A stretch of DNA of 64,000 nt from Candidatus Bathyarchaeota archaeon (GCA_043826455.1 JBDRQD010000039.1:923-64922); one strand, 5' to 3'. Numbered from the stretch's first letter, positions 10,999 through 60,963 are shown. The notes: generated by a model from the letters alone, not told the origin. Numbers and translations are program-made.

Positions 10999-11040
10999 CG
11001 GCTCGGGGCTGTATTTCACCTCACATTTTTTTATCGTATC

Positions 11041-11677: not shown

Positions 11678-11919
11678 CAGATCATAAACCTCTCACCCCC
11701 ATCCCCACCCCCTGCCTAACAGCCGCCTCAACAGCGCAGCCCCGAAAAACCACCCCCCATGATAACAAGACAAACAACGAGTACGGCGGACACCGCCGAC
11801 CACCACCACCGCCAACGAACCCCGAAAAAGCCCCCGATCAACAAAACAAGCCAGAACAATGTGAATCGTGGTGGCGGCGGTGGGACCCCCCCTCCCCCCC
11901 ACATGCACGCACAAACAAT
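11678..11919 (+). repeat. A+C-rich intergenic element, copy A
   Basis: Aligns by eye at roughly 80% over ~135 nt to the reverse complement of 60731-60875, and more loosely to 50190-50330. Confidence 0.7.
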
Positions 11920-11997: not shown

Positions 11998-12059
11998 TCC
12001 TCTCAGATCACAACCCTATAGTCTTATAAACCTTCCAGTACCCCCCACAAACTGAAAAC

Positions 12060-33594: not shown

Positions 33595-33672
33595 GGGCTC
33601 GTAGTCTAGCCAGGATAGGATTCTGGCCTGCGGAGCCGGAGGTCGTGGGTTCGAATCCCACCGAGCCCGCCA
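33595..33672 (+). tRNA. tRNA-Arg (GCG), CCA encoded
   Basis: GGGCTCGTAGTCTAGCCAGGATAGGATTCTGGCCTGCGGAGCCGGAGGTCGTGGGTTCGAATCCCACCGAGCCCGCCA folds as a cloverleaf with anticodon loop CTGCGGA. Confidence 0.9.
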
Positions 33673-34089: not shown

Positions 34090-34425
34090 AACCGTGTTTT
34101 CTGGGCTCCAGAGTCAAAGAGGAAGCACCTCAACGAGTAAAAGCATGAGGCAAAAGATGGAATTTTTTTCCGCCTTATCCCGGCTGGCACGGGATAAGCC
34201 ACCTAACTAACGATATGCCCCTCGCACCAGCACCACAGCCCCAGAGAGGGGGGAGGGGGTAGAGCAAAATGAACCTGAAACAGGTGCCCCAGGCCAAAAG
34301 GAGGCTGGGAAACACGCCTTTGCCGTCCTATTCTATGCAGAAACGCCGTCCATTCCATACAGAGACACGGTCATTTCAGCGCATCAGGCACGGTACTGAT
34401 GTGCAAAAAAAGTAGGGGGTATCGT
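34090..34425 (+). repeat. Inverted-repeat partner L (~340 bp)
   Basis: Aligns by eye at roughly 70-75%, with indels, to the reverse complement of 43055-43410. Confidence 0.65.
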
Positions 34426-43054: not shown

Positions 43055-43410
43055 AATGATACCCCCCTACGTTTTTTCACATCAGGCTCTCCATCACGCC
43101 TTGCTTTATGTGTTGAATGGGCCGCGTTTTTGTATGGAATGGATAGCGTTTTTGCGTAGATTGGGATCGAAAAGGCGGGTTTCCTGGCCTCCTTTTGGCG
43201 TGGGGCGGCCGTTTCCGGTTTTTCTTGCTCTACCCCCCTCCCCCCTCTCTGGGGCTGTGGTGCTGGCGTGGTGAGTGTAACGTTTTCCGGGAGTGGCTTA
43301 TCCCATGCCGGACGGGATAAGGCGGAAAAAAAATCCATCTTATATTACATGTTTTTGCTTCGGTGAGGCTCCTCCTCATCCTCGGCTCAGGAGCTCAGGA
43401 AAACACTGTT
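43055..43410 (-). repeat. Inverted-repeat partner R (~355 bp)
   Basis: The reverse complement aligns to 34090-34425, including the CCGCCTTATCCCG...GGGATAAGCC hairpin and CAGCACCACAGCCCCAGAGAGGGGGGAGGGGG. Confidence 0.65.
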
Positions 43411-43447: not shown

Positions 43448-43473
43448 ATTTCGTTCGTAATTACGATCGAAAT
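43448..43473. other. 26-nt near-perfect palindrome ATTTCGTTCGTAATTACGATCGAAAT abutting the MFS stop codon
   Basis: Read directly. There is one central-arm mismatch. Confidence 0.6.
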
Positions 43474-44621
43474 CACCGGGGTTCCGGGGGCTCCTCCAGC
43501 CTCCAGCTCAACGGGATGGTGGTGAGGGCCACCAGGGCCAGGAGCGTGTAGACTGTGCCCGCGGCCCACGCCTCCGAGATGAGTCCGGCTGCGACGGGGC
43601 TGATGGCTGAGCCGACTCCGAACACGGTCTCATAGACCCCCATGGCCAGGCCCCTGCTCTCTGCCGGGGCCCTGTGGGCTATGTAGTTAAGGATAACGGG
43701 CTCTATGAGGCCATTGCCCAAGCCGTACACGGCTAGAGCCAGGCCGATGATCACCAAGTCCGCAGTGGCGGCGAAGACCAGCAGAGGCGCCGCCAGTATG
43801 ACGCTGATCAACGCCAGAGACCTCCTTGTGCCCCACCGGACCAGGCGCTCCACGCCCAGGAACCCGGCGCCCTTGGCCGCGTTGCTCAGGGTCAGCAGCA
43901 GCCCTATGGTGGTGGCCGTGAAGCCGATCTTACCCAAGTGGCCGGGCACGATGTTGAAGTAGACTCCGCAGCAGAGGGCGTAGGGGAACAGGCACACGTA
44001 GCCCCAGGCCACGGGCCGCAGGGGCGACCTGTCTGTCTTCCTGGCGCTCAGACTGTTCCTAAGTCTCACTCTGCCCAGGGGGCTCAGGGCTGTGAGGGCT
44101 GCGCCCGCAGCCACCAGGAGGGTCATGGCGGTGAAGAGGGCCGTGAAGCCCAGGGTGTCGCCTACGAGTCCGCCTAGGAGGGGGCCAGCCACCATGCCGC
44201 TCATCCAGCTGAGGTTGTAGACGGCTATGCTGTGGGTGAGCGCCTCGGGCGGGGACAGGTCGGCCACTATGGCGCTGCTGGCCACCCAGAAGGTGCCCGT
44301 GGTCAGCCCTATCAGGAGCCGTAGGGCTATGAGGTCACCCACGTCGCGGGCCAGGACCAGGGTGAGCATGCTGGCCGCGATGGCCGCGTTGAAGGCGGTG
44401 TAGAGGCGGACCTTCTCGTACCTGTCCAGGAGGACCCCTGTGATGAGGGTGGTGACCGTGTAGCCCACCGCGGTCGCGGCGCCCATGAGGCCCAGGGTGA
44501 GGTAGTCGGCGCCCATCCTCTCGGCGTAAACTGGGACCATGGTCATGGCCGTGCTGACGGCCAGGGATATGGTGAAGATGACGGCGTAGAGGGCGCGCTG
44601 AGCCGCCGCGTTGTCCTGCAT
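43473..44621 (-). CDS. MFS transporter
   Basis: 382 aa multi-TM protein, last gene of a three-gene minus-strand unit. Confidence 0.8.
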   Translation of the reverse strand: MQDNAAAQRALYAVIFTISLAVSTAMTMVPVYAERMGADYLTLGLMGAATAVGYTVTTLITGVLLDRYEKVRLYTAFNAAIAASMLTLVLARDVGDLIALRLLIGLTTGTFWVASSAIVADLSPPEALTHSIAVYNLSWMSGMVAGPLLGGLVGDTLGFTALFTAMTLLVAAGAALTALSPLGRVRLRNSLSARKTDRSPLRPVAWGYVCLFPYALCCGVYFNIVPGHLGKIGFTATTIGLLLTLSNAAKGAGFLGVERLVRWGTRRSLALISVILAAPLLVFAATADLVIIGLALAVYGLGNGLIEPVILNYIAHRAPAESRGLAMGVYETVFGVGSAISPVAAGLISEAWAAGTVYTLLALVALTTIPLSWRLEEPPEPR

Positions 44622-44624
44622 GCC

Positions 44625-45458
44625 CTATGCTTCCACTGCCCTGGGCTTATCACTCTTCCGGGGACCCTGGAACACTATGCGCTCATCGAGGGTCGCTTTA
44701 AGCCCGTCCAAGGCCGCCACCACGGGCACCCCTGTGGCCTCCTCCAGGTAGGCGGCCTCCTTCTCGGGGCCGGCGTTGAGCATCCGCATCCCGAAGTGGG
44801 TGATGACGGCGCAGCCCGGCCTGGCGTCCAGCAGAATCCTCTCGGCCTCGTCTGTTGAGAGGTGCTTCTCCAGGTGTTGGGCCCTGGGCCACATGACGCA
44901 GAGGACGAGGAGCCGCGCGCCGCTGTAGATTGTGCCCAGCTCAGGGAAGTAGCCTGTGTCGCCAGTGTAGCCGATGGCTCCTGTCCCAGGCGTCTCCATG
45001 AGCAGGCCGACGGATGCGGGGTCGCTGTGCCTGGCCTCGGTGGCCCTGAAGCTGAGGTCGTTGACGGTGAACCCTGTGCCGGGCTCCAGCTCCACGACCT
45101 CGCCCACCAGCCCCCTGTGGTAGGCTGATACGCTGGGCCCTATTCCGTCTGAGCCCCACAGGACGCTGCGGGTGGTTGCCAGTGTGCCTCGTTTCTTGGT
45201 GGTTCCGTGGGTCATGGCCTCTATGAATACCTCGGCGTCCCCGTAGTGGTCGGGGTGGCAGTGGGTGACTATAAGCCCGTCCAGGCTCTGGGGGCCCAGG
45301 CCGGCCCAGTTGCTGAAGACGAGGGCGCCGGGGCCGGGGTCCACGTGGACCTGGGTGCCACCGTGGACGATCCTGATGCCTGCTGTTCTGCGCCTCTGGG
45401 TGGTCATGGCGAAGCGGCCTCCGCCGGTGCCTAGGAAGTGGATGTCCAGGCCGGTCAC
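44625..45458 (-). CDS. MBL-fold metallo-hydrolase
   Basis: THCHPDHYGD motif. Confidence 0.8.
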   Translation of the reverse strand: MTGLDIHFLGTGGGRFAMTTQRRRTAGIRIVHGGTQVHVDPGPGALVFSNWAGLGPQSLDGLIVTHCHPDHYGDAEVFIEAMTHGTTKKRGTLATTRSVLWGSDGIGPSVSAYHRGLVGEVVELEPGTGFTVNDLSFRATEARHSDPASVGLLMETPGTGAIGYTGDTGYFPELGTIYSGARLLVLCVMWPRAQHLEKHLSTDEAERILLDARPGCAVITHFGMRMLNAGPEKEAAYLEEATGVPVVAALDGLKATLDERIVFQGPRKSDKPRAVEA

Positions 45459-47041
45459 CTTTTCCGTAGGACCTTGCCGGCTAGCTCGCCGGTGTGCTCT
45501 CCCCCGTAGATGGCCAGCCGCCCGTTGACCACCACGTAGGGGATGCCCTCGGGGTACCTGTGGGGGTCGCTGAAGGTGGCCGTGTCCCTGATCTCTTCAG
45601 GGTTGAAAATGGTCAGGTCCGCGGCCATGCCTTCTTTAATGACGCCGCGGTTCTGGAGCCCAAGGCGGCTTGCGGGCATGGACGTCATCCGCCTCACGGC
45701 CTCCTCAGGAGTGAACAGCGGCTTCTCAACCGTGTAGATGCGAAGGTACCGGGGGAAGGCGCCGTAGCAGCGGGGGTGGGGCCGGCCCTGGCTGAGAAGC
45801 CCGTAGGGGGCGTGACTCCAGCCGTCGCTGCAGGGCATGACCGCCGGGTGCTTTACCAGTTCGTCTACGTCCTCCTGTTCGCCCCAGAAGGTGACGTTCA
45901 TGGCCTCGGCGTTCTCCTCCAGTAGGAGGTCGCAGAGGGCGTCCACGACGGTCGCTCCTCTCGCCTGGGCGATCTCGGCGACGCTCATGCCCTCATACCG
46001 TTTGTTCTGGGCCGACTTGACGTAGGTGACCATGACCTTGGTGAAGTCGCGGCTCTTCCTGCCCTCCTCCGCGGCGTACTCCTTCCTCAGCCTCGCCCTG
46101 ATTTCCGGGTCTCTCAGCCGGCCCAGCATCTTCTGCACTCCGCCCTCGTGGGCCCAGTCGGGTATGACCTGGGTGAGGAGGCTGGAGCCGGCGGTGTAGG
46201 GGTAGATGTCGGCCGTGATGTCCAGCCCATTGAGTCGTGCCTCGTCGATGGCCTTGAGGGTTGTCTCCTGGTGTCTTCCGTGGAGCTCCTTGTGGCCCGC
46301 ACAGCTGCTGCCCAGGTGGCTGACCTGGATGGGCATCCCGGTTTTGAACCCGAGCCTGATGGTGTCCTCTAGGTTCTCCAGGTTGCCTCGCATGTGGGTT
46401 GTGTACAGGCCCCCGTACTCGTTGAGGACGTGGCCCAGCTGGACAAGTTCCTCATCCTTGGTGAAAGTGCCGGGCGGGTAGCCGAGGCCCGTGGACAAGC
46501 CGTGGGCGCCCTGCTCCATGCCCTCCCGTAGCAGCCCCTTCATCTCCTGGAGCTCAGCCTCCGTTGAGTCCCTGTCGTCGAAGCCTATGACGTTGATCCT
46601 GATGCTGCCGTGGCCGATTAGGGGAACCAGGTTGATGCCGGGGCCCTTGGCCTCGACGCGTTTGATGAAGTCGTCCATAGTTTTCCAGTCCCAGTTGAGG
46701 CTGAGGCCCGACGTGAAGGGCTTGAGGTAGGCTATTAGCTCGTCCTTGTGCCCGTGGAGGGGGTACATGCTGAGGCCGCAGTTACCCATGGTGGCGGTGG
46801 TGACTCCCTGGTGGACGTAGCTCTCCAGGCGGGTGTTGCCGAGGACTGTGTGGTCGGCGTGCATGTGGACGTCGATCCAGCCCGGGGTGACCACGAGGCC
46901 GGAGGCGTCGATGACTTTGTCGGCGTCCAGGTTCCTGGCCACCTTAGCGATTAATCCGTCCTCTATACCTATGTCCGCCCAGAACCAGGGGCTACCCGTG
47001 CCGTCGATTACCTTTCCGTTCCTTACGACCAGTTCAAACAA
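45455..47041 (-). CDS. N-acyl-D-amino-acid deacylase (D-aminoacylase) family amidohydrolase
   Basis: N-terminal VIDGTG...PGWIDVHMHADH pattern, 528 aa. There is a 4-nt overlap with the downstream gene. Confidence 0.8.
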   Translation of the reverse strand: MFELVVRNGKVIDGTGSPWFWADIGIEDGLIAKVARNLDADKVIDASGLVVTPGWIDVHMHADHTVLGNTRLESYVHQGVTTATMGNCGLSMYPLHGHKDELIAYLKPFTSGLSLNWDWKTMDDFIKRVEAKGPGINLVPLIGHGSIRINVIGFDDRDSTEAELQEMKGLLREGMEQGAHGLSTGLGYPPGTFTKDEELVQLGHVLNEYGGLYTTHMRGNLENLEDTIRLGFKTGMPIQVSHLGSSCAGHKELHGRHQETTLKAIDEARLNGLDITADIYPYTAGSSLLTQVIPDWAHEGGVQKMLGRLRDPEIRARLRKEYAAEEGRKSRDFTKVMVTYVKSAQNKRYEGMSVAEIAQARGATVVDALCDLLLEENAEAMNVTFWGEQEDVDELVKHPAVMPCSDGWSHAPYGLLSQGRPHPRCYGAFPRYLRIYTVEKPLFTPEEAVRRMTSMPASRLGLQNRGVIKEGMAADLTIFNPEEIRDTATFSDPHRYPEGIPYVVVNGRLAIYGGEHTGELAGKVLRKR

Positions 47042-47376
47042 TGCTCAGACCTAACCAGATAAGGAAGCTGTAGAATATATGACGTTTCAGAGGTGCTTGT
47101 TTTCCGAATGAGAAAGTATGGTTAACTTTTTTTCATAAGGGCTTTCTTGAGAGAGTGAGGATCAGTAAAATCAACGTCATCTGAAATATCTATGGAATCA
47201 AAGAGGCTTGAAGGCGATAGAGGCTCAATGATGGATATCTTTTCCTTAGAAGACGCCTTTTTTATCATGTTCTCTTAATTTATAGTCATCGTTCAACTAA
47301 ACAGATATGTTTCCTGGGATATTGAGAAGCTGAATTAAACCTTTATATTTTTTAATAAATACTGCGTGTAGCGGTT

Positions 47377-48555
47377 CTATACTTTAGACTTGCTTTTTAG
47401 AAGGGATATAATCGGTATACCCAGAGCTATCGATAGAGCTGCGAACAGGAAGGGTGAGGTCTGTGAAACACTGCCATACAGGTAGCCCCCTATCAGGGGG
47501 CCCACGGTGAACCCGAGTCTTAGCCCTGTGGCGTTTATCCCGAAGCCGGCCCCCTGAAGCTCCTTAGGCACCATGGTGGACAGTGTCGTCAGGTTGCTGG
47601 GCCAGGTGACGCTCCACATGGCCGTCCCTAAAGCGTACAGGACCAGGAGCAGAACCCAGTTGTCGGTGAAGCTCCACAGCGCGAAGAAGACAGGCATCAC
47701 CGCTGTGCACACCAGCAGAATCCTCTTGGGGTCGTACCGGTCGGCAAGTCTACCGGCCGGCACCTGCGTCAGTAGGGTGACCAGGTTGGACGCCGTGAAG
47801 AACAGGCCGATGCTGAGAGGCGTCAGCCCGTAGACCTCGGCCAGGTACAGGGGCACCACCAGGTTCACGGCCCCTAAGGCCGTGGTCATGAGGAACGGGG
47901 CCACACACATGACGAACAGCACCCTCAGGGTGTCTCGCTCCAGCAGCCTCCTCAGGTCGGGCGCCTTCCTGGCTGCGCCGGGCTCACGCTCCTTCTCCTT
48001 GATCATCAGCGCGGGCACCAGGCTCACTGCGCTCACAGCCGCCGAGACTAGGAACACGTTTCTCCAGCCCGAGGTTTCCACTATGAGGCCACTCACCACA
48101 GGGCTTATGATCCCCGTTATGGGCCAGGCCATGTTCATCAAACCGAAGAGGAGTGCCCGGTTCTGCACCGTGGCGTTCTCGGAGACCATGGCCATCCTGG
48201 CCGGCACAAACAAGGCGCCCACGAGGCTGTACGCCACGTAGAAGGGCAGCACCGTGCTCCAGCTCTCTGATGAGGAGATCAGGTAGACGGCCGTGGCCCC
48301 CACCGCCGCGTTCAGCGCCAGGAACAGCCGCTTGCCGAACCTATCCACCACCACCCCTGAGGGGAACATGAGCAGGGTGGCCGCCAGGTTGCCGGCGGAG
48401 ATTACGTAGCTGATCTCAGCCTTCCCGGCCCCCACGGTCCCCAGGAACAGGGGGAACAGGGGGTTGATCATCTGCATGGACAGCCCAAACGCGATGTTCA
48501 CCAGGAAGAGGAGAGCCAGGTTCCTGCTGATGCTCCTAAGCATAACAGGCACCAT
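47377..48555 (-). CDS. MFS transporter
   Basis: 392 aa multi-TM protein. Confidence 0.8.
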   Translation of the reverse strand: MVPVMLRSISRNLALLFLVNIAFGLSMQMINPLFPLFLGTVGAGKAEISYVISAGNLAATLLMFPSGVVVDRFGKRLFLALNAAVGATAVYLISSSESWSTVLPFYVAYSLVGALFVPARMAMVSENATVQNRALLFGLMNMAWPITGIISPVVSGLIVETSGWRNVFLVSAAVSAVSLVPALMIKEKEREPGAARKAPDLRRLLERDTLRVLFVMCVAPFLMTTALGAVNLVVPLYLAEVYGLTPLSIGLFFTASNLVTLLTQVPAGRLADRYDPKRILLVCTAVMPVFFALWSFTDNWVLLLVLYALGTAMWSVTWPSNLTTLSTMVPKELQGAGFGINATGLRLGFTVGPLIGGYLYGSVSQTSPFLFAALSIALGIPIISLLKSKSKV

Positions 48556-48649
48556 GAAATGAGCCCTCCGTGATAAATCTACCCCCGCCAGATGTGCAAA
48601 ACCATATGTGGGTAACCCGACATTGAATATTCAGAGCAGGCTGACCACC

Positions 48650-49390
48650 ATGTCCGAGGAGACCCTCTACGAGAGATTGACCCCAGCCGCCCTCGAGGCC
48701 AGGATAAAGTCCGCGCCAATAGCCTACCTGCCCCTGGGCACCCTGGAGTGGCACGGCCCCCACCTGCCCCTGGGCAGCGACCACCTCCAGAGCCAAGGCT
48801 TCTTCACCCAGCTGGCCAGGCGCGCCGGAGGCGTGGTCCTGCCGCCATTGTTCCTGGGCCCGGACTCGGTGAAGATGGTGGACGGCGCCGAGTACTACGG
48901 CATGGACATCCACCAGAATGCCTACCCTTACCCCGTCCGCCTCAAGGGCAGCGCCTACTGGGTCCCCGATAAGCTGTTCACGGAGATCGTGGACGCCGTC
49001 CTCAAGCAGCTCCGAAGAGCAGGCTTCAGGATCGTGGTGGCCCACGGACACGGCCCAAGCACAAACCTGGTCATCAAGAACCGTGAAAGCCTAGAAAAGA
49101 GGCACGGCCTCAGGGTACTTACGCTGTGGGATGGTGAGGGCAGGGACCGGGACACCGGGTTCCAAGTCGACCACGCGGCCGCCAACGAGACCAGCATCAT
49201 GATGGCCCTCCACCCAGCCCTGGTGCACATGGAGCACCTACCGAGGGACCCAGCCGAGCAGCCCCTCGCCACCATAGGCAAGGACCCCAGGACCCACGCC
49301 TCGTACGCCCACGGCCAGAGGATCGTCGCCACAAACCTTGACTGCATGGAGTCCCTGCTGAGGAAAGAGTTGACGCAGATCACTAGATGA
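48650..49390 (+). CDS. Creatininase-family amidohydrolase
   Basis: LPLGTLEWHGPHLPLGSD and AHGHGPS motifs. ATG 48650 is preferred over the track start 48608. Confidence 0.8.
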   Translation: MSEETLYERLTPAALEARIKSAPIAYLPLGTLEWHGPHLPLGSDHLQSQGFFTQLARRAGGVVLPPLFLGPDSVKMVDGAEYYGMDIHQNAYPYPVRLKGSAYWVPDKLFTEIVDAVLKQLRRAGFRIVVAHGHGPSTNLVIKNRESLEKRHGLRVLTLWDGEGRDRDTGFQVDHAAANETSIMMALHPALVHMEHLPRDPAEQPLATIGKDPRTHASYAHGQRIVATNLDCMESLLRKELTQITR

Positions 49391-49441
49391 AGTGAGGATA
49401 AAATTATTGATTGGGTGAGAGTATACGTGATGTGATAAAGT

Positions 49442-50005
49442 ATGGTCGCTCAGCCTAATCTTGAGACTGAAAGACTGATCCTGAGACCATTCAAGCCAAG
49501 CGACGCAGAACAAGTACAGAGACTAGCCGGATCAGAAGAGGTAGCCGAGACCACGAACCTACCCCACCCCTACACCGTGGAGATGGCAGAGGAATGGATC
49601 AAGACCCACGAACCGGCGTACAGGATGGGCTGAGGAGCCGCCTATGCCATCACGCTGAAGAACACCGGCGAACTCATCGGAGCGATCAGCCTCATGGACA
49701 TCACCCAGCCCAGCAACCACGCCCGCATCGGGTTCTGGGTGGGCGTACCCTACTGGAACAAGGGGTACTGCACGGAGGCCGGGAAAGCCGTCCTGGAGTA
49801 CGGCTTCCAAGTGAGACACCTCAACCGCATCCACACAGGCTACATGATCAGCAACCACGCCTCAGGCCGCGTACTGGAGAAGCTCGGCATGGTGTACGAG
49901 GGAACCCAGAGACAGCACATCACCCGACTAGGAAAACACGAAGACCTGATCCTCGTGGGACTACTGAGATCAGAGTGGATCAAAAACCAGGACAAGGCAC
50001 CGTGA
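49442..50005 (+). pseudogene. GNAT (RimJ/RimL-like) N-acetyltransferase interrupted by an in-frame TGA at 49631-49633
   Basis: Track ORFs 49442..49633 and 49694..50005 are in the same frame. The read-through sequence is ...HEPAYRMG*GAAYAITLKNTGELIGAISL... Confidence 0.7.
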
Positions 50006-50332
50006 CGCGGGCCCCCCACATTCTGCCGAGAACCGGCAACACCCACTGACCCATCAAAAAAGGCTCAATGCATCCACTGCCCACCCCTCCGCCACCATAC
50101 ACCAACCCCGAACAAACATTAACCAAATCCACGAACAACCAAACAAGAAAAAACCCAAAACAAAACAGAAAAACAAACCCACACCCCAACCCACGACAGA
50201 CACCACCACAAACCGCCACCATAAAACAACCCCAAAAAACACCCGAACACCAAAACAAACCAAAAAACAGCAAACCATGACAACGACGACAATCCCCCCG
50301 GGGGGGTATGCACACACACAACAAAACAAAGG
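50006..50332 (+). repeat. A+C-rich intergenic element, copy C (most extreme)
   Basis: 50101-50280 contain only 10 G and 5 T in 180 nt by hand count. The 3' end aligns to copy A (…ATGCACRCACAACAA followed by a tRNA 3' end). Confidence 0.6.
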
Positions 50333-50415
50333 TGCGGGGGGAGGGATTCGAACCCTCGAAAGCCTAAGCTATAGGATCTTGAGTCCCACCCCTTTGGCCA
50401 CTTGGGAACCCCCGC
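50333..50415 (-). tRNA. tRNA-Leu (CAA) with long variable arm
   Basis: Reverse complement GCGGGGGTTCCCAAGTGGCCAAAGGGGTGGGACTCAAGATCCTATAGCTTAGGCTTTCGAGGGTTCGAATCCCTCCCCCCGCA. Confidence 0.9.
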
Positions 50416-50493
50416 CCAGAACAAAACAAACACCACCAACATAAAACCGTTCCCCACAAACCCAAATACCACAACAACCAAACCCATACCAAG

Positions 50494-51195
50494 ATGAGGA
50501 CCACCATAAGCCTCGGCGGCAGCCTACTCACCGGCGACAAAAACGACCCCACACTCACCCTAACCCCCAAACCCTACCGAGCCTACGCCACAGTCCTAAG
50601 GCAGCTCCACGACCTCGGCCACCAGATCATGGTTGTATGCGGAGGAGGAAAACCCGCACGCCACTACATCCAGGTAGCCAAAAACCTGGGCGCGTCACGA
50701 TCCATCCAGGACATGCTGGGCGTCAAGGCCACCCACATAAACGCCCTCCTCCTCACAGCCGCCCTAGGCGACACAGCCGACCAGACCAGAATATACACCC
50801 GGGCAACGGAGCTAAGATACCGCCAACCCGACAAGATATGGGTGGGCGGAGGCTATAAGCCCAAAAGCAGCACCGACTACCGGGCCATCCTCCTCGCCCG
50901 CGCCCTCGGCTCAGACGCCGTCATCAACGCCACCGACGTCCCAGGCGTCTACGACTCCAACCCCCACACCAACCCCAAAGCCAGAAAGCTCGACACGGCA
51001 ACCCACGCCCAGCTAGAGAGAATCATCAAAGAAAGCACCAGGCAGGCCCCAGGCGAGTACGGCCTCTTCGACCTCAAAGCAGTCAAACTAGCCGCCAGGA
51101 TCAACATGCCCCTCATCTTCATAGACGGCAGAGACCCCGAGGAGCTGAGACGAGCCGTCGAAGGCGGCCACAGCGGCACAGTAGTGAAGACTTAG
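50494..51195 (+). CDS. pyrH: UMP kinase (archaeal type)
   Basis: ISLGGSLL...VVCGGGKPARHY...GGYKPKSSTD pattern, 233 aa. Confidence 0.9.
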   Translation: MRTTISLGGSLLTGDKNDPTLTLTPKPYRAYATVLRQLHDLGHQIMVVCGGGKPARHYIQVAKNLGASRSIQDMLGVKATHINALLLTAALGDTADQTRIYTRATELRYRQPDKIWVGGGYKPKSSTDYRAILLARALGSDAVINATDVPGVYDSNPHTNPKARKLDTATHAQLERIIKESTRQAPGEYGLFDLKAVKLAARINMPLIFIDGRDPEELRRAVEGGHSGTVVKT

Positions 51196-51234
51196 CCCTC
51201 TCATGTTTTAATCCCTGAAAACCAACAATAACCC

Positions 51235-52692
51235 ATGACAGGTCACAGAGTAGTCATCGGCTCGATAGCCCACGAGACCAACACCTTCAGCACCGTAAAG
51301 CTCAGACTACCCGACTTCAACCCCCTCTACGGAGACGACATCACCAAAGTCCTCAAAGGCACCAGAAGCGGCATAGGCGGCTTCATAGACGTCCTCGAAA
51401 AAGAGGGCGTAGAAATGGTCTTCACCATATCAGCCCACGCCACCCCCGCTGGCCCAGTCAACCACACAGACTACAGGCGCATGGTGGACACCATCTTAGA
51501 AGGCGTCAAAGATGAGAAGGTGGACGGGGTCCTCCTAGCCCTCCACGGAGCCATGGTCGCCGAGAACGTACCGGAGGCCGAGGGCGTCCTCCTAGAAGAA
51601 GTACGCAAACAAGTAGGCAAGAAGCCCATCATCATCACCCTGGACCTCCACGGACTAATCTCCACCAAGATCATAGACAACTGCGACGCCGTCTACGGCT
51701 ACGACACCAACCCCCACATAGACATGTACGAGCGAGGCGTCGAAGCCGCCGAGACCATGGTAAAAACCCTCAGAGGCGAACTCAAACCCGTCGTCGCCCA
51801 CAAGAAGCTACGAATGCTGCCCCCGACGATCAACCAGAGAACCACCGAGGGCCCCATGGTGGAGCTCCTTAAAGAAGCACGGAAGATGGAGAAGAAGCCG
51901 GGCGTCCTCAACGTATGCATCTTCCCCGCCTTCCCTTACGCCGACGTGCAGCGCGCAGGCTCAGCAGTGGTGGCGGTCACCGACGGCGACAAGAAGCTGG
52001 CTCAGAGCCTCTGCGACCAGCTGGGCGAGAAGATGTACGCCATGCGCCAGCAGTTCCTGAAGCAACTCACACCCATAAAGGAAGCAGTGAAACGAGCCGT
52101 CGATGCACCGGAGAGACCTATAGTGTTGGCTGACGTGGCGGACAACCCAGGCGGAGGAGCCCCAGGGGACGGCACAGAGATACTCCGGGAGCTCATGAGG
52201 GTGAAGGCTAAGAGCGTGAGCGTCGCCATCATCAAGGATCCCGAGGCGGTAGCCGAGGCCATAAAAGTCGGCGTCAAGGGCACCCTCCGAATGCCCATCG
52301 GGGCTAAGACGGACACCTTCCACGGCAAACCCGTTAAGGTGGAGGGCACGGTGCGCACCATCACGGACGGCAGGTTCATCCACAAGGCCATGGCCGTGGG
52401 CGTTCCCGCCGACGTGGGCCGGACAGCCGTCATCGACGTGGACGGCATAGAGATCATCCTCACCGAGAAGAGCCACGCCCCCAACGACCCAGAGATATAC
52501 AGGCGCAACGGCATCGAGCCCACCGACAAGAAGATACTGGTGCTGAAGAGCCGCGGCCACTTCAGGGCAGCCTACGAGCCCTTCAGTAAGGAGATCATAG
52601 AGGTGGACGCCCCAGGCCTCACTTCCCCCAACCTGAGCTGGTTCAAGTATACCAACATACCGCGCCCCATCTGGCCCTTCGACCCAGTCTAG
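51235..52692 (+). CDS. MlrC-like (M81) metallopeptidase
   Basis: N-terminal IGSIAHETNTFS and family-typical length (485 aa). Confidence 0.8.
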   Translation: MTGHRVVIGSIAHETNTFSTVKLRLPDFNPLYGDDITKVLKGTRSGIGGFIDVLEKEGVEMVFTISAHATPAGPVNHTDYRRMVDTILEGVKDEKVDGVLLALHGAMVAENVPEAEGVLLEEVRKQVGKKPIIITLDLHGLISTKIIDNCDAVYGYDTNPHIDMYERGVEAAETMVKTLRGELKPVVAHKKLRMLPPTINQRTTEGPMVELLKEARKMEKKPGVLNVCIFPAFPYADVQRAGSAVVAVTDGDKKLAQSLCDQLGEKMYAMRQQFLKQLTPIKEAVKRAVDAPERPIVLADVADNPGGGAPGDGTEILRELMRVKAKSVSVAIIKDPEAVAEAIKVGVKGTLRMPIGAKTDTFHGKPVKVEGTVRTITDGRFIHKAMAVGVPADVGRTAVIDVDGIEIILTEKSHAPNDPEIYRRNGIEPTDKKILVLKSRGHFRAAYEPFSKEIIEVDAPGLTSPNLSWFKYTNIPRPIWPFDPV

Positions 52693-52841
52693 CCGAGGCT
52701 ACAGTAAAAGGGGGTGGCGTCCACCACATTCACGGGCTGGCTCATAGAGAACCAGGACACCGGAGTAATACTCCTCCTGTCCCTGAGATTGCTTGTTCCC
52801 ACGTGCCTAATAGCGGTCGCCCTGTGAAGACGGGCTGCTAG

Positions 52842-54128
52842 CTAAATCATGCCCCTGGCTAGGTCATCCAAGCTCTCCCTACTTCTCACCAGCCGGGCCT
52901 CGCCACCCAGCACCATGACCTCGGGGGCTCTGGGCCTGGAGTTGTACTGGCTGCTCATGGAGAAACCGTAGGCCCCCGTGTTCATTATGGCTAGAAGGTC
53001 CCCCTCCTTAGGGTGAGGCATGGGCCTGTCCCTGGCGAAGACATCCCCTGACTCGCACAGAGGCCCATAAACGTCGTAGATGCCCTCCTCGCCTTTGAGG
53101 TTCGAGGCGTTCAGAATCTCGTGGTATGACCCGTACATGGCCGGCCTCACCAGGGTGTTGAAGCCCGCGTCCACCCCCACGTAGCGCCTGAAAGGGTTAT
53201 CCTTGAGGGTGGTGACCCTGGTAAGCAGCGCCCCCGCGTCCGCCACGATGAACCTGCCCGGCTCAAGCCAAAGCTCGGGGTTGCCCAACCCGTAGGCCTC
53301 AACCTTCTCTTTGATGAAGCCAGCCAGCTCCTCCAGGAAGCCGTCCAGGTCCACCTCCTCCTCACCAGGCTTGTAGGGCACCCCTATTCCTCCGCCCAGG
53401 TCAATGAACTCGAACTCGACGCCTAGCCTCTCATGCACCTTGGCTGCTATCTCCAGCATCCTGCCAGCCGCCCTGACGTAGTGGTGGGCGTCACTGATCC
53501 CTGACCCTATGTGCATTTGCACGCCGAACCTCTTCACTCCGGACTCCGCGGCCTCGGAGTAGGCCTTGACTGCGTCCTCATCCCACACCCCGAACTTGGC
53601 GTGGGCCCCCGCGGTGATGACGTGCTCGTGGTGGCCGGCCCCCAGCTCCGGGTTCACCCTGAAGCTCAGAGTGTCGGGTATGTGATATGTGAGCAAACGC
53701 TTCAGCTGAGACCTGGAGTCAAGGTTTAGCCTGACTCCTCTCTCAACGAGCCACCTCATCTCCTCGTCTGAGACGCTGGTGCCCGTGAACAGGATCTGGT
53801 CAGGATGGAACCCAACCTTCAGGGCCAGGTGCACCTCGCCTGGGCTCACAGCATCGATCTCTGAGCCCAGCCTCCTCAGCAGCCTGAGGATAGCTAGGTT
53901 GGTGTTAGCCTTGGCCGCGTAAAGTATCCTGGACCTGGGGTACGCACTTCCTAGGGCGTCCCTCAGTCTCGTGTAGTTGTCCGCTATCCTCTTCTCGCTA
54001 TAAACGTAGAGGGGTGTCCCGTGGGCTCTGGCTATCTGCTCCGCCGACGCTTCGTCGATGTGGAGCTTTCCGTCGACTTCTGTGAAGGGCGGCCTCATGA
54101 CAAGCTCTCTGGTACCTGATCCGCGCAC
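52842..54128 (-). CDS. lysA: Diaminopimelate decarboxylase (fold-III PLP decarboxylase); ATG 54098 is an alternative start
   Basis: YAAKANTN, HIGSG and CESGD motifs. Confidence 0.8.
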   Translation of the reverse strand: MRGSGTRELVMRPPFTEVDGKLHIDEASAEQIARAHGTPLYVYSEKRIADNYTRLRDALGSAYPRSRILYAAKANTNLAILRLLRRLGSEIDAVSPGEVHLALKVGFHPDQILFTGTSVSDEEMRWLVERGVRLNLDSRSQLKRLLTYHIPDTLSFRVNPELGAGHHEHVITAGAHAKFGVWDEDAVKAYSEAAESGVKRFGVQMHIGSGISDAHHYVRAAGRMLEIAAKVHERLGVEFEFIDLGGGIGVPYKPGEEEVDLDGFLEELAGFIKEKVEAYGLGNPELWLEPGRFIVADAGALLTRVTTLKDNPFRRYVGVDAGFNTLVRPAMYGSYHEILNASNLKGEEGIYDVYGPLCESGDVFARDRPMPHPKEGDLLAIMNTGAYGFSMSSQYNSRPRAPEVMVLGGEARLVRSRESLDDLARGMI

Positions 54129-54836: not shown

Positions 54837-55751
54837 ATGGAATTCCCAGTGGCTGGATCGTGGGCCCCGCGGATAATGTTTAAACTCCTCCGTTCCCACT
54901 CATCTTCTGATTTTATGGCAATAATAGATACGCTCCTCAGCAACATATGGGTCATCTTCCTGTTCTTCACTCTCATATACCCCCGCCTACAGCAGGGGCT
55001 CATCCAGAACGCGAGGTCAAGCGACCTCAGTAGACTAGGAAAAAAACGGGGAACCAGCGTCATAACACTCATCCACAGACAGGAGACCCTCAGCCTCTTC
55101 GGGTTACCCATCAGCAGGTACATAGACATAGACGACAGCGAGGACCTACTCCGAGCCATTAGGCTGACACCCGACGACCAGCCCATAGACCTCATAATCC
55201 ACACGCCGGGCGGCTTAGCCCTGGCCGCCACCCAGATAGCCTTCGCACTAAAAGCCCACAAGGGCAAGACCACCGTCATGGTCCCCCACTACTCCATGAG
55301 CGGCGGCACCCTAATCGCCCTCGCAGCCGACGAGATACTCATGGACGCCCACGCCGTCCTAGGCCCCGTGGACCCCCAGATAGGGACAAGCACCGGCTCC
55401 TTCGCAGCCTCAAGCATACTAAAGGTTGTGGAGAAAAAGGAGCCCAAGGACACGGACGATGAAACCATGTACCTGGCCGAGGAAGCCCGCAAGGCCATCG
55501 GGCAGATGAAGGACACCGTGAGGCAGCTCATAGGCGACAAGTATCCCCCCGACAGAATTGAGGCCATAATAAGCGACCTCGTAACCGGAAAATACACCCA
55601 CGACTTCCCTATAACGTCTGAGACAGTATGTAGTCTGCTCGGCCAATGCGCCTACCCTGAACTGCCTCTGGAGGTGTACACCCTGATGAACCTCTACAAG
55701 ATGGGTCAGCAGCGCAGACCCGGTGTCGAGTATGTCCCCATGGCCACCTGA
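54837..55751 (+). CDS. ClpP-fold serine protease of the SDH (serine dehydrogenase proteinase) family
   Basis: DLIIHTPGGLALAATQIA...MSGGTLIALAADEILM pattern plus an N-terminal TM segment. Confidence 0.6.
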   Translation: MEFPVAGSWAPRIMFKLLRSHSSSDFMAIIDTLLSNIWVIFLFFTLIYPRLQQGLIQNARSSDLSRLGKKRGTSVITLIHRQETLSLFGLPISRYIDIDDSEDLLRAIRLTPDDQPIDLIIHTPGGLALAATQIAFALKAHKGKTTVMVPHYSMSGGTLIALAADEILMDAHAVLGPVDPQIGTSTGSFAASSILKVVEKKEPKDTDDETMYLAEEARKAIGQMKDTVRQLIGDKYPPDRIEAIISDLVTGKYTHDFPITSETVCSLLGQCAYPELPLEVYTLMNLYKMGQQRRPGVEYVPMAT

Positions 55752-59668: not shown

Positions 59669-60691
59669 TTACCGCTTGGCCGCGATACTGGTCTTGAGGC
59701 TGCCTATCTTCTCTATCCAGGCTTCGAGCTTGTCGCCGGGCTTCAGGAACAGCTTGGGGTCTGTCTTGCCGTCCACCATGGGGGTCTGGTCCATGGCTGT
59801 GCCGCTGCAGGTTCCTCCGCAGATTATGTCTCCGGGGTAGAAGACCATGTCTCTGGTGAGGTGGCTGAGCCACCAGTCGTAGCCTCTGATGATGCTCTCC
59901 ATTGTGCCGTCCTGGCGTAGCTCTCCGTTGACCCACTGCTTAATCCGCAGCTTGTAGGGGTCACCGATCTCGTCGGCCGTCACGATGCAGGGGCCCATGG
60001 GGGCGCATCCGTCGAAGTTCTTGGCGTAGAACAGGCCGTCCGGTCCGGGTCTCCTGCCTCCGTCTCTGATGCTGAGGTCGTTGACGATGGTGTACCCGTA
60101 GATGATGCTCACGGCGTCTTTCTCGGCCACGTCCTTGCACTGTTTGCCGATGACGGCTGCTAGCTCCACCTCGTAGTCGAGGCGCTGGGTCCTGCTTGGG
60201 TAGGGGGTCTCCCCGCCTGGGCCTATGACGCATCCGGCGTGTTTCCAGAAGCCCCAGGCCGGGTACTCACCCTTCTCTACCTGTTTCTTGAGGTCCTCGA
60301 TGGTGGTCGTGGTGTCGCCGCGTAGGGTCTTGGCTGCGTCCAGGCTGTGGTCGTAGAAGTTGGCTCCGGCCATGGCTATCTTGGTGGCTTTGCTGGGCAG
60401 GGGGGCGTGGAGTTTGACCTCCTCACCTGAGTAGTGGAGCTTCTCGCCTCTGGGCCCTTGCTTGTTGCCTGCCTTGACGTGGGCCACGGCTTTCTTTGCT
60501 TCGTCCAGCCCCTTCTTGCCTTCCTGGATGAAGGCCAGGAGGTCTGCGGGTACTGTGGCGTCCGCCTTGGCTTGTGGCCGGGGTTCTCCTCGGCTCTTGA
60601 GGTAGGCTGCGTAGGCGTGGTTGAGGTCTGTGACTGTTCCGTCTTCCTGGAGGGCTCCGAGCCTCCCGGTGTTGTATGTGACTAGTTTCAT
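59669..60691 (-). CDS. Fumarylacetoacetate hydrolase family protein
   Basis: C-terminal FAH domain (YEVELAAVIG, GDIICGGTCSG). Confidence 0.85.
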   Translation of the reverse strand: MKLVTYNTGRLGALQEDGTVTDLNHAYAAYLKSRGEPRPQAKADATVPADLLAFIQEGKKGLDEAKKAVAHVKAGNKQGPRGEKLHYSGEEVKLHAPLPSKATKIAMAGANFYDHSLDAAKTLRGDTTTTIEDLKKQVEKGEYPAWGFWKHAGCVIGPGGETPYPSRTQRLDYEVELAAVIGKQCKDVAEKDAVSIIYGYTIVNDLSIRDGGRRPGPDGLFYAKNFDGCAPMGPCIVTADEIGDPYKLRIKQWVNGELRQDGTMESIIRGYDWWLSHLTRDMVFYPGDIICGGTCSGTAMDQTPMVDGKTDPKLFLKPGDKLEAWIEKIGSLKTSIAAKR

Positions 60692-60963
60692 GGATTGATG
60701 ATGGTGGGTTTTGTGTTTAAAGACATTGGGGTGGTTTGTGTGTGTGCACGTGGGGGGGGGGGAGGGGGGGTCCCATCACCGCCACCGCGGTTCCCGGTTT
60801 TCAGGCTTGTTTACTTGATCGGAGGCTTTTTCAGGGTTTCTAGGCGGTGGTGGTGGTGGGTGATGTCCGCCGCGGGGCGTCAGTTGTTCAACAATGGCTT
60901 GACTGCTGTGTGGAAGCGTGTGATTTGAGGCGGGGCTGTTTTTCTGGAAGCTGTCAAGGCTGA
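60692..60963 (-). repeat. A+C-rich intergenic element, copy B (inverted; G+T-rich as read on the + strand)
   Basis: The reverse complement of 60731-60875 aligns to 11781-11915. Weaker similarity extends across the whole intergenic region. Confidence 0.65.

What the first reader, a model, noticed from the sequence alone, without database searches (positions are those of the whole stretch)
49150..51950. Zone 2: same-polarity A+C-rich zone on both sides of element copy C and tRNA-Leu
The + strand bias rises through the 3' end of the creatininase gene and the GNAT gene, and peaks in 50006-50493. It continues through pyrH (50494-50553 is about 42/60 A+C by hand count) and fades about 700 nt into the MlrC-like gene, near 51950. 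Polarity is the same on both sides of the element, so this is not the mirror pattern expected around a bidirectional replication origin or a two-sided break. It spans four unrelated genes, so gene family or expression class is an unlikely cause.
Basis: partly seen in the sequence, partly recalled or inferred. Interest (0 to 1): 0.75.

Follow-up and report, generated by a model that had tools for sequence, protein, structure and literature searches.

The report
Repeat-anchored one-strand mutation gradient
In this uncultured Bathyarchaeia genome, a short dispersed repeat marks the start of a 1–2 kb stretch where one DNA strand has drifted towards A and C whichever way the genes point, which suggests the repeat acts as a local, directional mutator of its neighbours.

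Summary
The A+C-rich zone is real. The plus strand reaches 83% A+C in 50006-50330 and 90% in 50416-50493, against a window mean of 50% (sd 6%). At four-fold synonymous sites, pyrH and the first 200 codons of the MlrC-like gene are about 90% A/C, against a background of 58%. The effect is strongest at synonymous and intergenic sites. It ends in a step near 51804. To the left it is weak and reaches only to about 49630.

Orthologous loci from other metagenomes keep the gene order, so this is not a transferred island. Polarised substitutions show per-site excesses of G>A, G>C and C>A over their complements.

The decisive result is that the skew follows the orientation of a ~130-nt repeat (long stem plus a C7-T-C7 tract), not the genes. 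Copies A and B in the window and 11 independent copies elsewhere were tested. Twelve of 13 show the excess downstream. This includes 7 of 7 cases where the downstream gene lies on the opposite strand and is forced into G/T-ending codons. That excludes codon usage, mRNA structure and the genes' own transcription.

The most likely cause is repeated single-strand exposure of the G-rich complementary strand beside the repeat. The molecular trigger is inferred, not shown. I found nothing comparable in the literature.

The parts
49634..50005 (+). Second half of a GNAT (Acetyltransf_3) pseudogene. This is the weak upstream arm of the zone.
   Evidence: AC3 is 0.75, 0.75 and 0.65. Window-specific changes raise A+C 16:7, against 11:17 in the ortholog L030 (Fisher p = 0.048). 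There is an in-frame TGA at 49631-49633.
50006..50330 (+). Intergenic A+C peak. It contains the decayed repeat copy C (about 50190-50330, core about 50236-50299).
   Evidence: A+C is 0.834 (A143 C128 G35 T19). Local alignment to copies A and B gives z = 7.5 and 7.0, or 10.0 and 7.9 in purine/pyrimidine coding. Mismatches are G>A 8 and C>A 5. The long stem is lost and only a C6/G7 mini-hairpin remains.
50331..50415 (-). tRNA-Leu(CAA). It lies inside the zone but is not skewed.
   Evidence: Found by ARAGORN and Rfam. A+C is 0.506. It is conserved in all relatives, while its 3' flank is hypervariable.
50416..50493 (+). Divergent-promoter spacer between tRNA-Leu and pyrH. This is the most skewed segment.
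   Evidence: A+C is 0.897 (G3, T5 of 78). Gene-upstream 80-mers in the window average 0.544 with sd 0.10, and this one is the top outlier.
50494..51195 (+). pyrH (UMP kinase). This is the core of the zone.
   Evidence: Pfam AA_kinase. AC3 is 0.83 and AC4 is 0.906. Per-site ratios at four-fold sites are G>A/C>T 5.3x (p = 0.00075) and G>C/C>G 4.6x (p = 0.0097).
51235..51834 (+). First 200 codons of the MlrC-like gene (DUF1485/MlrC_C). This is the distal part of the zone and ends in a step.
   Evidence: AC3 by bin is 0.88, 0.93, 0.68, 0.90 and 0.75, then 0.55-0.68. The best change point is at 51804. AC4 is 0.892 before it and 0.685 after it.
11782..11912 (+). Repeat copy A (intact). Its own downstream zone runs from about 12000 to 12900 through the Rpp21 gene and the start of the dph5-like gene.
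   Evidence: nhmmer E = 1.7e-27. It has a 14-bp stem plus C7TC7. Rpp21 AC4 is 0.941. The 500-nt bins are 0.704 and 0.590.
60741..60873 (-). Repeat copy B (intact, inverted). Its downstream zone lies on the minus strand, from about 60740 down to 58700, across the FAA-hydrolase and ROK genes.
   Evidence: nhmmer E = 5e-30. It is 81% complementary to copy A. Plus-strand A+C is 0.32-0.40 over 60001-61000. AC4 is 0.809 and 0.753.

Best explanation
Zone 2 is one instance of a local, polar, strand-specific mutation pressure that starts at a dispersed ~130-nt repeat. The repeat has a 12-17-bp GC-rich stem, a conserved ~55-nt loop, and then a C7-T-C7 tract followed by CACGTGCAC.

**Shown.**
- On the repeat's strand, the DNA for about 1-2 kb on its 3' side, and weakly for 600 nt or less on its 5' side, becomes A+C-rich.
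- The effect is greatest at synonymous and non-coding sites.
- It holds whichever strand the neighbouring genes are on.
- Per-site substitution rates are asymmetric: G>A, G>C and C>A exceed their complements.

**Inferred.**
- The complementary, G-rich strand is repeatedly left single-stranded next to the repeat.
- One possible trigger is that any polymerase copying that strand stalls at the structure-prone repeat. The complement of C7TC7 is G3-N-G3-N-G3-N-G3, a canonical G-quadruplex motif, and it sits beside a long hairpin. Synthesis would then restart downstream and leave a gap.
- The other possible trigger is a nick in the C-rich strand that is widened into a gap.
- Either way, cytosine deamination, abasic sites and guanine oxidation on the exposed strand are copied into the new strand. 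On the repeat's strand these appear as G>A, G>C and C>A.
- Copy C in this window has itself been eroded by the same changes. Zone 2 is therefore partly a relic.

The confidence given is for the whole statement. The shown part alone I would put at about 0.85, and the specific stalling-and-gap trigger at about 0.3.
For: **The skew is real and sits at silent sites.**

**The locus is syntenic, with graded skew.**
- Seven related lineages share the gene order, and pyrH AC3 ranges from 0.57-0.68 per 40-codon bin (L027, which has no repeat next to the tRNA) up to 0.83 in the window and 0.91 in L002.
- Polarised four-fold-site rates, pooled over the zone, are G>A/C>T 4.1x (p = 7.5e-5), G>C/C>G 2.8x (p = 0.006) and C>A/G>T 2.6x (p = 0.035). 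Just outside the zone the ratios are about 2x.

**The skew tracks the repeat, not the genes.**
- 19 exact-core matches were found in the window and in public Bathyarchaeia contigs.
- The orientation-corrected third-position excess 0-900 nt downstream is positive in 12 of 13 independent copies (p = 0.0034), and in 7 of 7 copies with opposite-strand genes.
- Four of those opposite-strand genes are verified by Pfam: an aminotransferase, an ArsR regulator, an HSP20 and an MFS transporter.
- In three of them, third positions are 83-87% A/C on the repeat's strand in the first 30 codons beside the repeat, and reach 97% in the next bin of L009. This decays to about 45% by 1-3 kb.
- The normal 3'-end value on the genes' own strand is 0.515 with sd 0.08.
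- In the aggregate, co-oriented genes go 0.71-0.72, then 0.61-0.64, then 0.55. Anti-oriented genes go 0.82, then 0.60, then 0.50, then 0.44. The bin 300-600 nt upstream is about +0.1 in both classes.
- A second, inverted copy in L009 has its own zone in its own polarity.

**Repeat structure and erosion.**
- Only five G4 motifs (loops of up to 7 nt) were found in the 64-kb window, and two of them are repeat copies A and B.
- The stem is present in A and B and lost in C.
- G>A erosion of the stem arms is seen in many copies.
Against: The trigger is not demonstrated.
- Zone strength does not correlate with the present length of the C-runs. Only copies A, B, L011 and L014 have four clean G3 runs.
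- One subfamily (L015/L017, with L014/L018/L021/L016 weak) shows little or no zone.

The pyrH locus itself is untidy.
- L002 has the strongest skew, yet there is no repeat within the 73 nt visible beyond the tRNA before the contig ends.
- A distant pyrH (L032) has AC3 of 0.74 with no repeat in view.
- The 5' part of MlrC is A+C-rich even in L027. In this clade that region is now losing skew, with 40 changes raising A+C against 66 lowering it.

Other gaps.
- T>C, the sign of adenine deamination on the exposed strand, could not be measured because T is too rare.
- Polarisation rests on parsimony with seven taxa.
- Gene calls in the other loci are heuristic. Only four of the opposite-strand genes were checked with Pfam.
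Confidence: 0.5

Rival explanations
1. Read-through transcription from the repeat. The repeat is a strong promoter or an abundant non-coding RNA gene. Its transcripts run 1-2 kb downstream whatever the orientation of the genes there, and a transcription-linked mutational asymmetry makes the non-template strand A+C-rich.
For: The polarity follows the repeat, and the length scale is that of a transcription unit. In zone 2 the profile is a plateau with a sharp end at about 51804, as a discrete transcript would give. Across the genome, coding strands already lean slightly to C over G at four-fold sites (0.48 against 0.33).
Against: The sign is opposite to every transcription-associated asymmetry I know of (my own knowledge, not tested here). 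In E. coli and in mammals the exposed non-template strand becomes G+T-rich. The most skewed segment (50416-50493) is a divergent-promoter spacer that should be largely untranscribed. No archaeal BRE/TATA arrangement is evident in the conserved core by inspection. Rfam has no match. In zones 1 and 2 such a transcript would have to run head-on through a tRNA gene. The background shows no A>T asymmetry (0.095 against 0.091), whereas the zones show about 10:1.
Confidence: 0.17
2. Strand-replacement synthesis from a site-specific nick. An HUH-type nuclease, a relaxase or a repair nuclease nicks the C-rich strand at the hairpin. That strand is then repeatedly resynthesised for 1-2 kb. Lesions on the complementary strand become fixed, and lesions on the replaced strand are discarded.
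For: It gives the same polarity and the same spectrum as the main model. The repeat has the hairpin-plus-conserved-flank design typical of nick sites. A gap widened a little in the 3'-to-5' direction would explain the weak same-polarity arm upstream. In L005, direct copies of the repeat flank a 6.9-kb variable block.
Against: No transposase, Rep, relaxase or integrase gene is consistently near the copies. The repeat is absent from IMG/VR viral contigs. Without single-strand exposure it would need very frequent events to give 4-5-fold rate asymmetries.
Confidence: 0.15
3. The genes' own properties. pyrH and its neighbours are A/C-ending because of codon preference, expression level or a need for unstructured mRNA, and the repeat is only a bystander.
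For: pyrH is fairly A+C-rich at third positions even in a distant relative with no repeat in view (0.74). The 5' part of MlrC is A+C-rich in every relative. Other genes in the window reach AC3 of 0.75-0.82 in places with no repeat nearby, for example 54837-55751 and 44625-47041.
Against: Intergenic DNA, a pseudogene and a decayed repeat carry the strongest skew. Opposite-strand genes beside other copies are driven to G/T-ending codons, against the genome's own preference. Promoter-proximal DNA is not A+C-rich in general.
Confidence: 0.07
4. A foreign block. The zone is DNA recently acquired from a donor, virus or plasmid with strongly skewed strands.
For: The 3' flank of tRNA-Leu is an insertion hotspot with different AT-rich or unrelated inserts in the relatives. 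A tRNA-Met half is duplicated near copy A.
Against: tRNA-Leu, pyrH and MlrC are syntenic and 83-91% identical across seven lineages, with graded skew. The right boundary falls inside a conserved gene. GC3 and codon periodicity are host-like.
Confidence: 0.03

Closest known systems
Strand-asymmetric mutation gradients of vertebrate mitochondrial DNA (time spent single-stranded during strand-displacement replication)
   Same: One strand is A+C-rich and the other G+T-rich. The effect is greatest at synonymous sites. It grades with distance from a fixed point. It is attributed to damage on a strand left single-stranded (PMC3269015, PMC3269012).
   Different: Here the scale is 1-2 kb rather than a whole genome. 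The anchor is a multi-copy dispersed repeat in a cellular chromosome, not a replication origin. A>G on the exposed strand could not be shown. C>G-type and G>T-type changes are prominent.
Replication-associated GC/keto skew of bacterial and archaeal chromosomes
   Same: It is a strand-specific compositional bias independent of gene content, read as unequal single-strand exposure of the two templates.
   Different: Chromosomal skew changes sign only at origins and termini and is small. Here three zones of both orientations lie within 64 kb. Each is about 2 kb long, has the same polarity on both sides of its anchor, and reaches about 90% A+C at four-fold sites.
Orientation-dependent replication stalling and gap formation at G-quadruplex or triplet-repeat hairpin DNA (my own knowledge of the eukaryotic REV1/FANCJ/PrimPol literature; repriming reviewed in PMC8136793)
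   Same: A structure-prone G-rich motif on one strand. The effect is confined to the side where that strand would remain uncopied. The reach is on the kilobase scale.
   Different: It is known from experimental systems as epigenetic or deletion instability, not as an evolutionary base-composition gradient. It has not been described in archaea. Here G4 formation is inferred from sequence alone, and zone strength does not follow the integrity of the G-runs.
Transcription-associated strand asymmetry and AID-type hypermutation downstream of promoters
   Same: It is polar, runs 1-2 kb from a fixed start, and affects unrelated genes.
   Different: The sign is opposite to known transcription asymmetries. 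It does not follow the genes' coding strand. There is no deaminase-like sequence context.
REP/REPIN/MITE-type dispersed hairpin repeats (PMC3116915)
   Same: It is short, intergenic, multi-copy and hairpin-bearing. It breaks assemblies, and several related contigs end at it.
   Different: No mutational footprint on neighbouring genes is known for such repeats. No associated transposase was found here.

Membership tests
Replication origin/terminus skew | The sign of the skew flips across the site, and the skew persists over a replichore-scale distance. | tested here: not met
   The polarity is the same on both sides. The zone is about 2.2 kb. There are three zones in both orientations within 64 kb.
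Transcription-associated strand asymmetry | The bias follows each gene's own coding strand. | tested here: not met
   Opposite-strand genes next to the repeat carry the repeat's polarity. Their third positions are 83-97% A/C on the repeat's strand.
Codon-usage or expression-driven bias | The bias is confined to coding sequence and is consistent with the genome's preferred codons. | tested here: not met
   Intergenic segments are the most skewed (0.83-0.90). Anti-oriented genes use G/T-ending codons, against the background preference.
Horizontally acquired island | The block is absent or non-syntenic in close relatives, and its boundaries fall at gene or mobile-element ends. | tested here: not met
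   pyrH and MlrC are syntenic in seven lineages. The right boundary lies inside MlrC.
Single-strand-exposure mutation gradient (mitochondrial type) | The asymmetry is strongest at synonymous and non-coding sites and depends on distance from an anchor. | tested here: met
   AC4 is about 0.90 against 0.58 in the background. Positions 1 and 2 are barely affected. Distance dependence has p = 1e-7 in this locus, and 12 of 13 loci show the effect.
Single-strand-exposure mutation gradient (mitochondrial type) | Both C>T and A>G are in excess on the exposed strand. | tested here: inconclusive
   C>T on the inferred exposed strand (G>A on the plus strand) is 4.1x in excess (p = 7.5e-5). A>G on that strand (T>C on the plus strand) cannot be measured because T is 1-3% of silent sites.
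G-quadruplex-induced polar replication gap | A canonical G4 motif lies on the strand inferred to be exposed, with the affected DNA on that strand's 5' side. | tested here: met
   The complement of C7TC7 is G3NG3NG3NG3 in copies A and B. The zones lie on the 5' side of the G-rich strand.
G-quadruplex-induced polar replication gap | The strength of the effect depends on the integrity of the G4 motif, and a G4 actually forms and stalls polymerases. | tested here: inconclusive
   There is no clear relation between C-run lengths and zone strength in 13 loci. Structure formation and stalling cannot be tested with these tools.
Enzymatic deaminase hypermutation (APOBEC/AID-like) | Mutated bases share a characteristic di- or trinucleotide context. 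| tested here: not met
   Apart from an enrichment of A on the 5' side, which is also seen outside the zone and fits NAG>NAA codon changes, the neighbours of G>A changes match the background.
Structured RNA family or riboswitch | A match to a curated covariance model, or strong covariation. | tested here: not met
   Rfam gives no hit, even at E of 10 or less. The consensus stem has 7 pairs, a covariation term of -0.37 kcal/mol, and many uncompensated G>A breaks.
Mobile element border or att site at tRNA genes | Copies adjoin tRNA genes or integrases. | tested here: not met
   Only the tRNA-Met and tRNA-Leu loci (copies A and C in the window, plus the L005/L023 ortholog of the tRNA-Leu locus) adjoin a tRNA. 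The other 13 loci scanned have no tRNA next to the repeat. No integrase was found. There are no hits in IMG/VR.

The most novel reading that the evidence does not exclude
The repeat is a previously unrecognised kind of genomic element: a dispersed, orientation-specific local mutator. Wherever it lands, it imposes a kilobase-scale, one-strand mutation gradient that rewrites the codon usage, and partly the protein sequence, of neighbouring genes. It eventually erodes itself. Its footprints would record the length and polarity of single-stranded gaps, or of nick-initiated resynthesis, in an uncultured archaeon.
Probability: 0.35. Interest if true: 0.9.

Novelty: new variant of a known kind. Interest (0 to 1): 0.8.

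Why it matters
Local mutation rate and spectrum in prokaryotes are usually treated as functions of replication direction, transcription and sequence context. Here a small repeat appears to set both the strand and the reach of a strong mutational bias.

- The bias takes four-fold sites from 58% to about 90% A/C.
- It is strong enough to override codon preference in genes on either strand.
- It also pushes amino-acid changes. In pyrH, G>A outnumbers A>G by 25 to 10 at first codon positions and by 13 to 8 at second positions.

If the inference holds, three things follow.

1. It gives a natural read-out of single-strand gap length and polarity in archaeal DNA replication or repair. That is very hard to measure in uncultured lineages.
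2. It shows a way in which selfish repeats can damage or speed up the evolution of adjacent genes.
3. It warns that composition-based methods such as island detection, codon-adaptation indices and origin prediction can be misled by repeat-anchored zones.

Tried and rejected
- **GNAT stop codon.** I asked whether the in-frame stop (TGA at 49631) was a TGG>TGA product of the G>A bias. It is not. Relatives have AGA or AAA there, so it arose by A>T.
- **Deaminase-like context.** I looked for a sequence context around G>A changes. The only departure from background, an excess of A on the 5' side, is also seen outside the zone and fits NAG>NAA codon changes.
- **G4 motifs outside the repeat.** In the window and in 200 kb of related loci, the few other motifs have long loops and show no skew. 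The sample is too small to decide.
- **C-run length against zone strength.** No clear relation.
- **tRNA genes as the anchor.** Most copies have no tRNA nearby. tRNA-Arg at 33595 has no comparable zone. L027 has the tRNA without the repeat, and its pyrH is close to baseline.
- **A generic property of promoters, 5' ends or 3' ends.** Upstream 80-mers average 0.544. The last 30 codons of genes average 0.515.
- **Rfam.** No hit at gathering or at E-value thresholds.
- **The repeat in viral contigs.** Two patterns, no hits.
- **More decayed copies near the other mildly skewed genes.** Transition-tolerant scanning found none.
- **Literature.** Four full-text searches found no description of such zones or of this repeat.
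- **L005 block as an identifiable mobile element.** The 6.9-kb block flanked by repeat copies has no integrase or Rep gene. It gives only weak, sub-threshold Pfam hits.

Full report
**Source and gene map.** The window is about 60% G+C. Its pyrH product has its closest named relatives in Candidatus Bathyarchaeota MAGs. The identical gene lies on a metagenome contig from SRR26275510. Around the finding, the genes are:

| Coordinates | Strand | Gene |
|---|---|---|
| 47377-48555 | - | MFS transporter |
| 48608-49390 | + | creatininase |
| 49442-50005 | + | GNAT acetyltransferase, split by an in-frame TGA |
| 50331-50415 | - | tRNA-Leu(CAA) |
| 50494-51195 | + | pyrH |
| 51235-52692 | + | MlrC-like gene |
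| 52842-54128 | - | Orn/DAP decarboxylase |

- In 500-nt bins the plus-strand A+C is 0.778, 0.672, 0.630 and 0.594 from 50001 to 52000. Most of the window sits at 0.43-0.55.
- Among 325-nt windows (mean 0.499, sd 0.062), the twelve most extreme all start between 49901 and 50176.
- The two non-coding segments are 83% and 90% A+C. The tRNA between them is unbiased.
- Forty-eight background genes give coding-strand A+C of 0.494, 0.482 and 0.548 at codon positions 1, 2 and 3. pyrH gives 0.58, 0.55 and 0.83.
- At four-fold sites the background is 0.578 (C 0.48, G 0.33, A 0.095, T 0.091). pyrH is 0.906 and MlrC codons 1-200 are 0.892.
- The bias is therefore mainly a loss of G and T at silent sites.

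**Shape of the zone.**
- To the right, distance dependence is highly significant at third positions and absent at positions 1 and 2. The shape is a plateau (0.84) that drops to 0.61 at about 51804, not a smooth fade.
- To the left, only the second half of the GNAT gene is clearly raised (0.65-0.75). The creatininase gene is about +1 sd.
- The GNAT enrichment is derived. Window-specific changes raise A+C 16:7, against 11:17 in an ortholog.

**It is neither an island nor an artefact.**
- tRNA-Leu, pyrH and MlrC are syntenic in seven related lineages from independent samples, at 83-91% nucleotide identity.
- The tRNA-pyrH spacer is conserved and A+C-rich in all of them.
- pyrH AC3 differs gradually among them: 0.57-0.68 per 40-codon bin in L027, about 0.66-0.73 in L005, L025, L026 and L008, 0.83 in the window and 0.91 in L002.
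- Parsimony on these seven lineages gives pooled per-site rates at four-fold sites in the zone of G>A 4.1 times C>T (p = 7.5e-5), G>C 2.8 times C>G (p = 0.006) and C>A 2.6 times G>T (p = 0.035). In the rest of MlrC the same ratios are about 2.
- First and second codon positions show the same direction. In pyrH, G>A outnumbers A>G by 25 to 10 and by 13 to 8. The protein is being pulled along as well.

**The repeat.**
- Copies A (11782-11912, plus strand) and B (60741-60873, minus strand) are 81% alike.
- Each has a 12-17-bp GC-rich stem round a conserved loop (…CCCTGAAAAAGCCTCCGATCAAYAAAACAAGCC…). A C7-T-C7 tract and CACGTGCAC follow.
- 'Copy C' (about 50190-50330) is not significant to a profile HMM (E = 3.2). 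It aligns to A and B far better than shuffles do (z = 7-10), and its mismatches are mostly G>A (8) and C>A (5). That is the same spectrum as in the genes. It has lost the stem and the C7TC7 tract.
- Rfam has no match, and covariation in the stem is weak, with many uncompensated G>A breaks.
- An exact-core search found 4 stretches in GTDB genomes (three in Bathyarchaeia MAGs, one in a MAG labelled Desulfaltia) and 12 in JGI metagenomes.
- It found none in IMG/VR. Most copies are not next to tRNA genes.

**The decisive test.**
- Each intact copy in the window has its own A+C-rich zone on its 3' side, in its own orientation. Copy A's covers the Rpp21 gene and the start of the dph5-like gene. Copy B's covers the FAA-hydrolase and ROK genes.
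- In other loci the gene just downstream of the repeat often lies on the opposite strand. Examples are an aminotransferase (L011), an ArsR regulator and a membrane protein (L009), an MFS transporter (L020) and an HSP20 (L016). All but the membrane protein were confirmed with Pfam.
- In three of these loci (L009, L011, L020), third codon positions are 83-87% A/C on the repeat's strand in the first 30 codons, and reach 97% in the next bin of L009. This decays to about 45% within 1-3 kb. L016 is weaker, at 0.60.
- On their own strand these genes therefore end in G/T-ending codons (AC3 0.03-0.17). The normal value for gene 3' ends is 0.515 with sd 0.08.
- Pooled over non-redundant copies:

| Gene orientation relative to repeat | 0-300 nt | 300-900 nt | 900-1800 nt | Far |
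|---|---|---|---|---|
| Co-oriented | 0.71 | 0.71-0.72 | 0.61-0.64 | 0.55 |
| Anti-oriented | 0.82 | 0.60 | 0.47-0.51 | 0.44 |

- The bin 300-600 nt upstream of the repeat core is about 0.1 above baseline in both classes. The bin next to the core is raised only in the sparse anti-oriented class.
- Per locus, the orientation-corrected excess is positive in 12 of 13 independent copies (p = 0.0034), and in 7 of 7 with anti-oriented genes.
- The bias is therefore a property of the DNA strands relative to the repeat. It is not a property of genes, their messengers or their own transcription.

**How it most likely works.** This part is inferred.
- The changes that accumulate on the repeat's strand (G>A, G>C, C>A) are the complements of C>T, C>G and G>T. 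Those are the standard products of cytosine deamination, abasic sites and guanine oxidation. From my own knowledge, all are far more frequent in single-stranded DNA.
- The G-rich complementary strand therefore behaves as if it were repeatedly single-stranded for 1-2 kb on its 5' side of the repeat, and for a few hundred bases on the other side.
- A polymerase copying that strand meets the repeat first and the zone afterwards.
- The complement of C7TC7 is G3-N-G3-N-G3-N-G3. It is one of only five G4 motifs (loops of up to 7 nt) in the window, and two of the five are repeat copies A and B. It sits beside a long hairpin.
- Stalling there, with restart downstream, would leave exactly such a gap whichever way the fork travels. 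Limited resection of the nascent end would give the weak upstream arm.
- A strand-specific nick widened into a gap, or repeated nick-primed resynthesis of the C-rich strand, predicts the same pattern. I cannot separate these alternatives with sequence alone.

**Points that do not fit neatly.**
- Zone strength does not follow current C-run lengths, and one subfamily of copies has little or no zone.
- L002 has the strongest pyrH skew and still shows G>A greatly exceeding C>T inside the zone (24:3, against 13:9 outside; p = 0.02). Yet no repeat is visible in the 73 nt beyond its tRNA before the contig ends.
- A distant pyrH (L032) has AC3 of 0.74 next to a low-GC insert, with no repeat in view.
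- The 5' part of MlrC is A+C-rich even in L027. In this clade it is now losing skew, with 40 changes raising A+C against 66 lowering it.
- I read zone 2 as partly a relic. Copy C is dead, and the window's own terminal branch shows no G>A excess (4 against 4).

**Rivals.**
- *Read-through transcription from the repeat* keeps the polarity but has the wrong sign compared with known transcription asymmetries. It must also explain an untranscribed promoter spacer that is 90% A+C.
- *Codon usage, expression or mRNA structure* is contradicted by the opposite-strand genes and by the intergenic peak.
- *Horizontal transfer* is contradicted by the synteny.
- *A deaminase enzyme* is not supported by sequence context.

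**Novelty.** Four full-text searches found no description of repeat-anchored compositional zones, or of this repeat, in Bathyarchaeia or in other prokaryotes. The principle, unequal damage to a strand left single-stranded, is well known from mitochondria and from chromosomal skew. A dispersed repeat that sets a kilobase-scale, one-sided gradient in a cellular genome appears to be new.

Noticed in passing
window 11036-11090 and 11922-11976: An 89% copy of the 3' half of tRNA-Met lies 886 nt from the intact gene. The two bracket a flavodoxin-like gene (11204-11677) and repeat copy A. This looks like the att-type scar of an old integration at tRNA-Met.
   Followed up: partly
window 49631-49633: The GNAT (RimJ/RimL-type) gene carries an in-frame TGA where relatives have AGA or AAA (Arg/Lys). 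It is called as two ORFs on the public contig as well. It is a pseudogene or a recoded site, and it is unrelated to the G>A bias.
   Followed up: yes
3' flank of tRNA-Leu: window 50006-50330; L002, L005, L006, L025, L026, L027, L029: The DNA next to the 3' end of tRNA-Leu differs in almost every relative. It is an AT-rich insert, unrelated genes, or the repeat. The pyrH side is conserved. This is an integration or rearrangement hotspot.
   Followed up: partly
L005 294-541 and 7174-7429: Two direct repeats of about 250 nt, 96-97% alike, flank a 6.9-kb block. Each consists of the element, an A+C-rich spacer and the first 13 nt of tRNA-Leu. The block holds large hypothetical proteins and has no recognisable integrase. 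It is absent from L006, which encodes the identical pyrH protein.
   Followed up: partly
window 52693-52841 compared with L002 2470-3639, L005 9828-10997 and L008 2342-3511: Several relatives have an MFS transporter gene after the MlrC-like gene. The window lacks it. Conversely, the SDH-type protease gene (window 54837-55751; AC3 0.75-0.80 in its middle) is absent from L002.
   Followed up: no
window 34136-34393 and 43099-43359: There are three adjacent inverted-repeat pairs (51-146 nt, 77-84% complementary) about 8.7-9.1 kb apart, in regions of lower G+C near tRNA-Arg (33595-33672). They may be the ends of another mobile or invertible segment.
   Followed up: no
window 47042-47376: A sharply AT-rich intergenic island (G+C 0.36-0.38, against 0.60) lies between two minus-strand genes. 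The genes to its left (43473-47041) have mildly raised AC3 of 0.65-0.82 with no repeat copy nearby.
   Followed up: no
whole window: Four-fold-site A+C on the coding strand is 0.548 for plus-strand genes and 0.603 for minus-strand genes. The plus strand is therefore slightly G+T-rich overall, as expected if it is the leading strand across this window.
   Followed up: no
L032 900-4816 and 5001-5699: In a distant Bathyarchaeota MAG, pyrH (GC3 0.82, AC3 0.74) sits directly beside a low-GC block (G+C about 0.36-0.48) that contains an HNH nuclease gene. The upstream side of pyrH may be an insertion hotspot across the group.
   Followed up: partly
L009 91-218 and 3914-4041: Two repeat copies in inverted orientation lie about 3.7 kb apart, and each has its own zone pointing inwards. 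One of the public hits (L011) is binned as a bacterial 'Desulfaltia' MAG, which is probably a binning error.
   Followed up: partly
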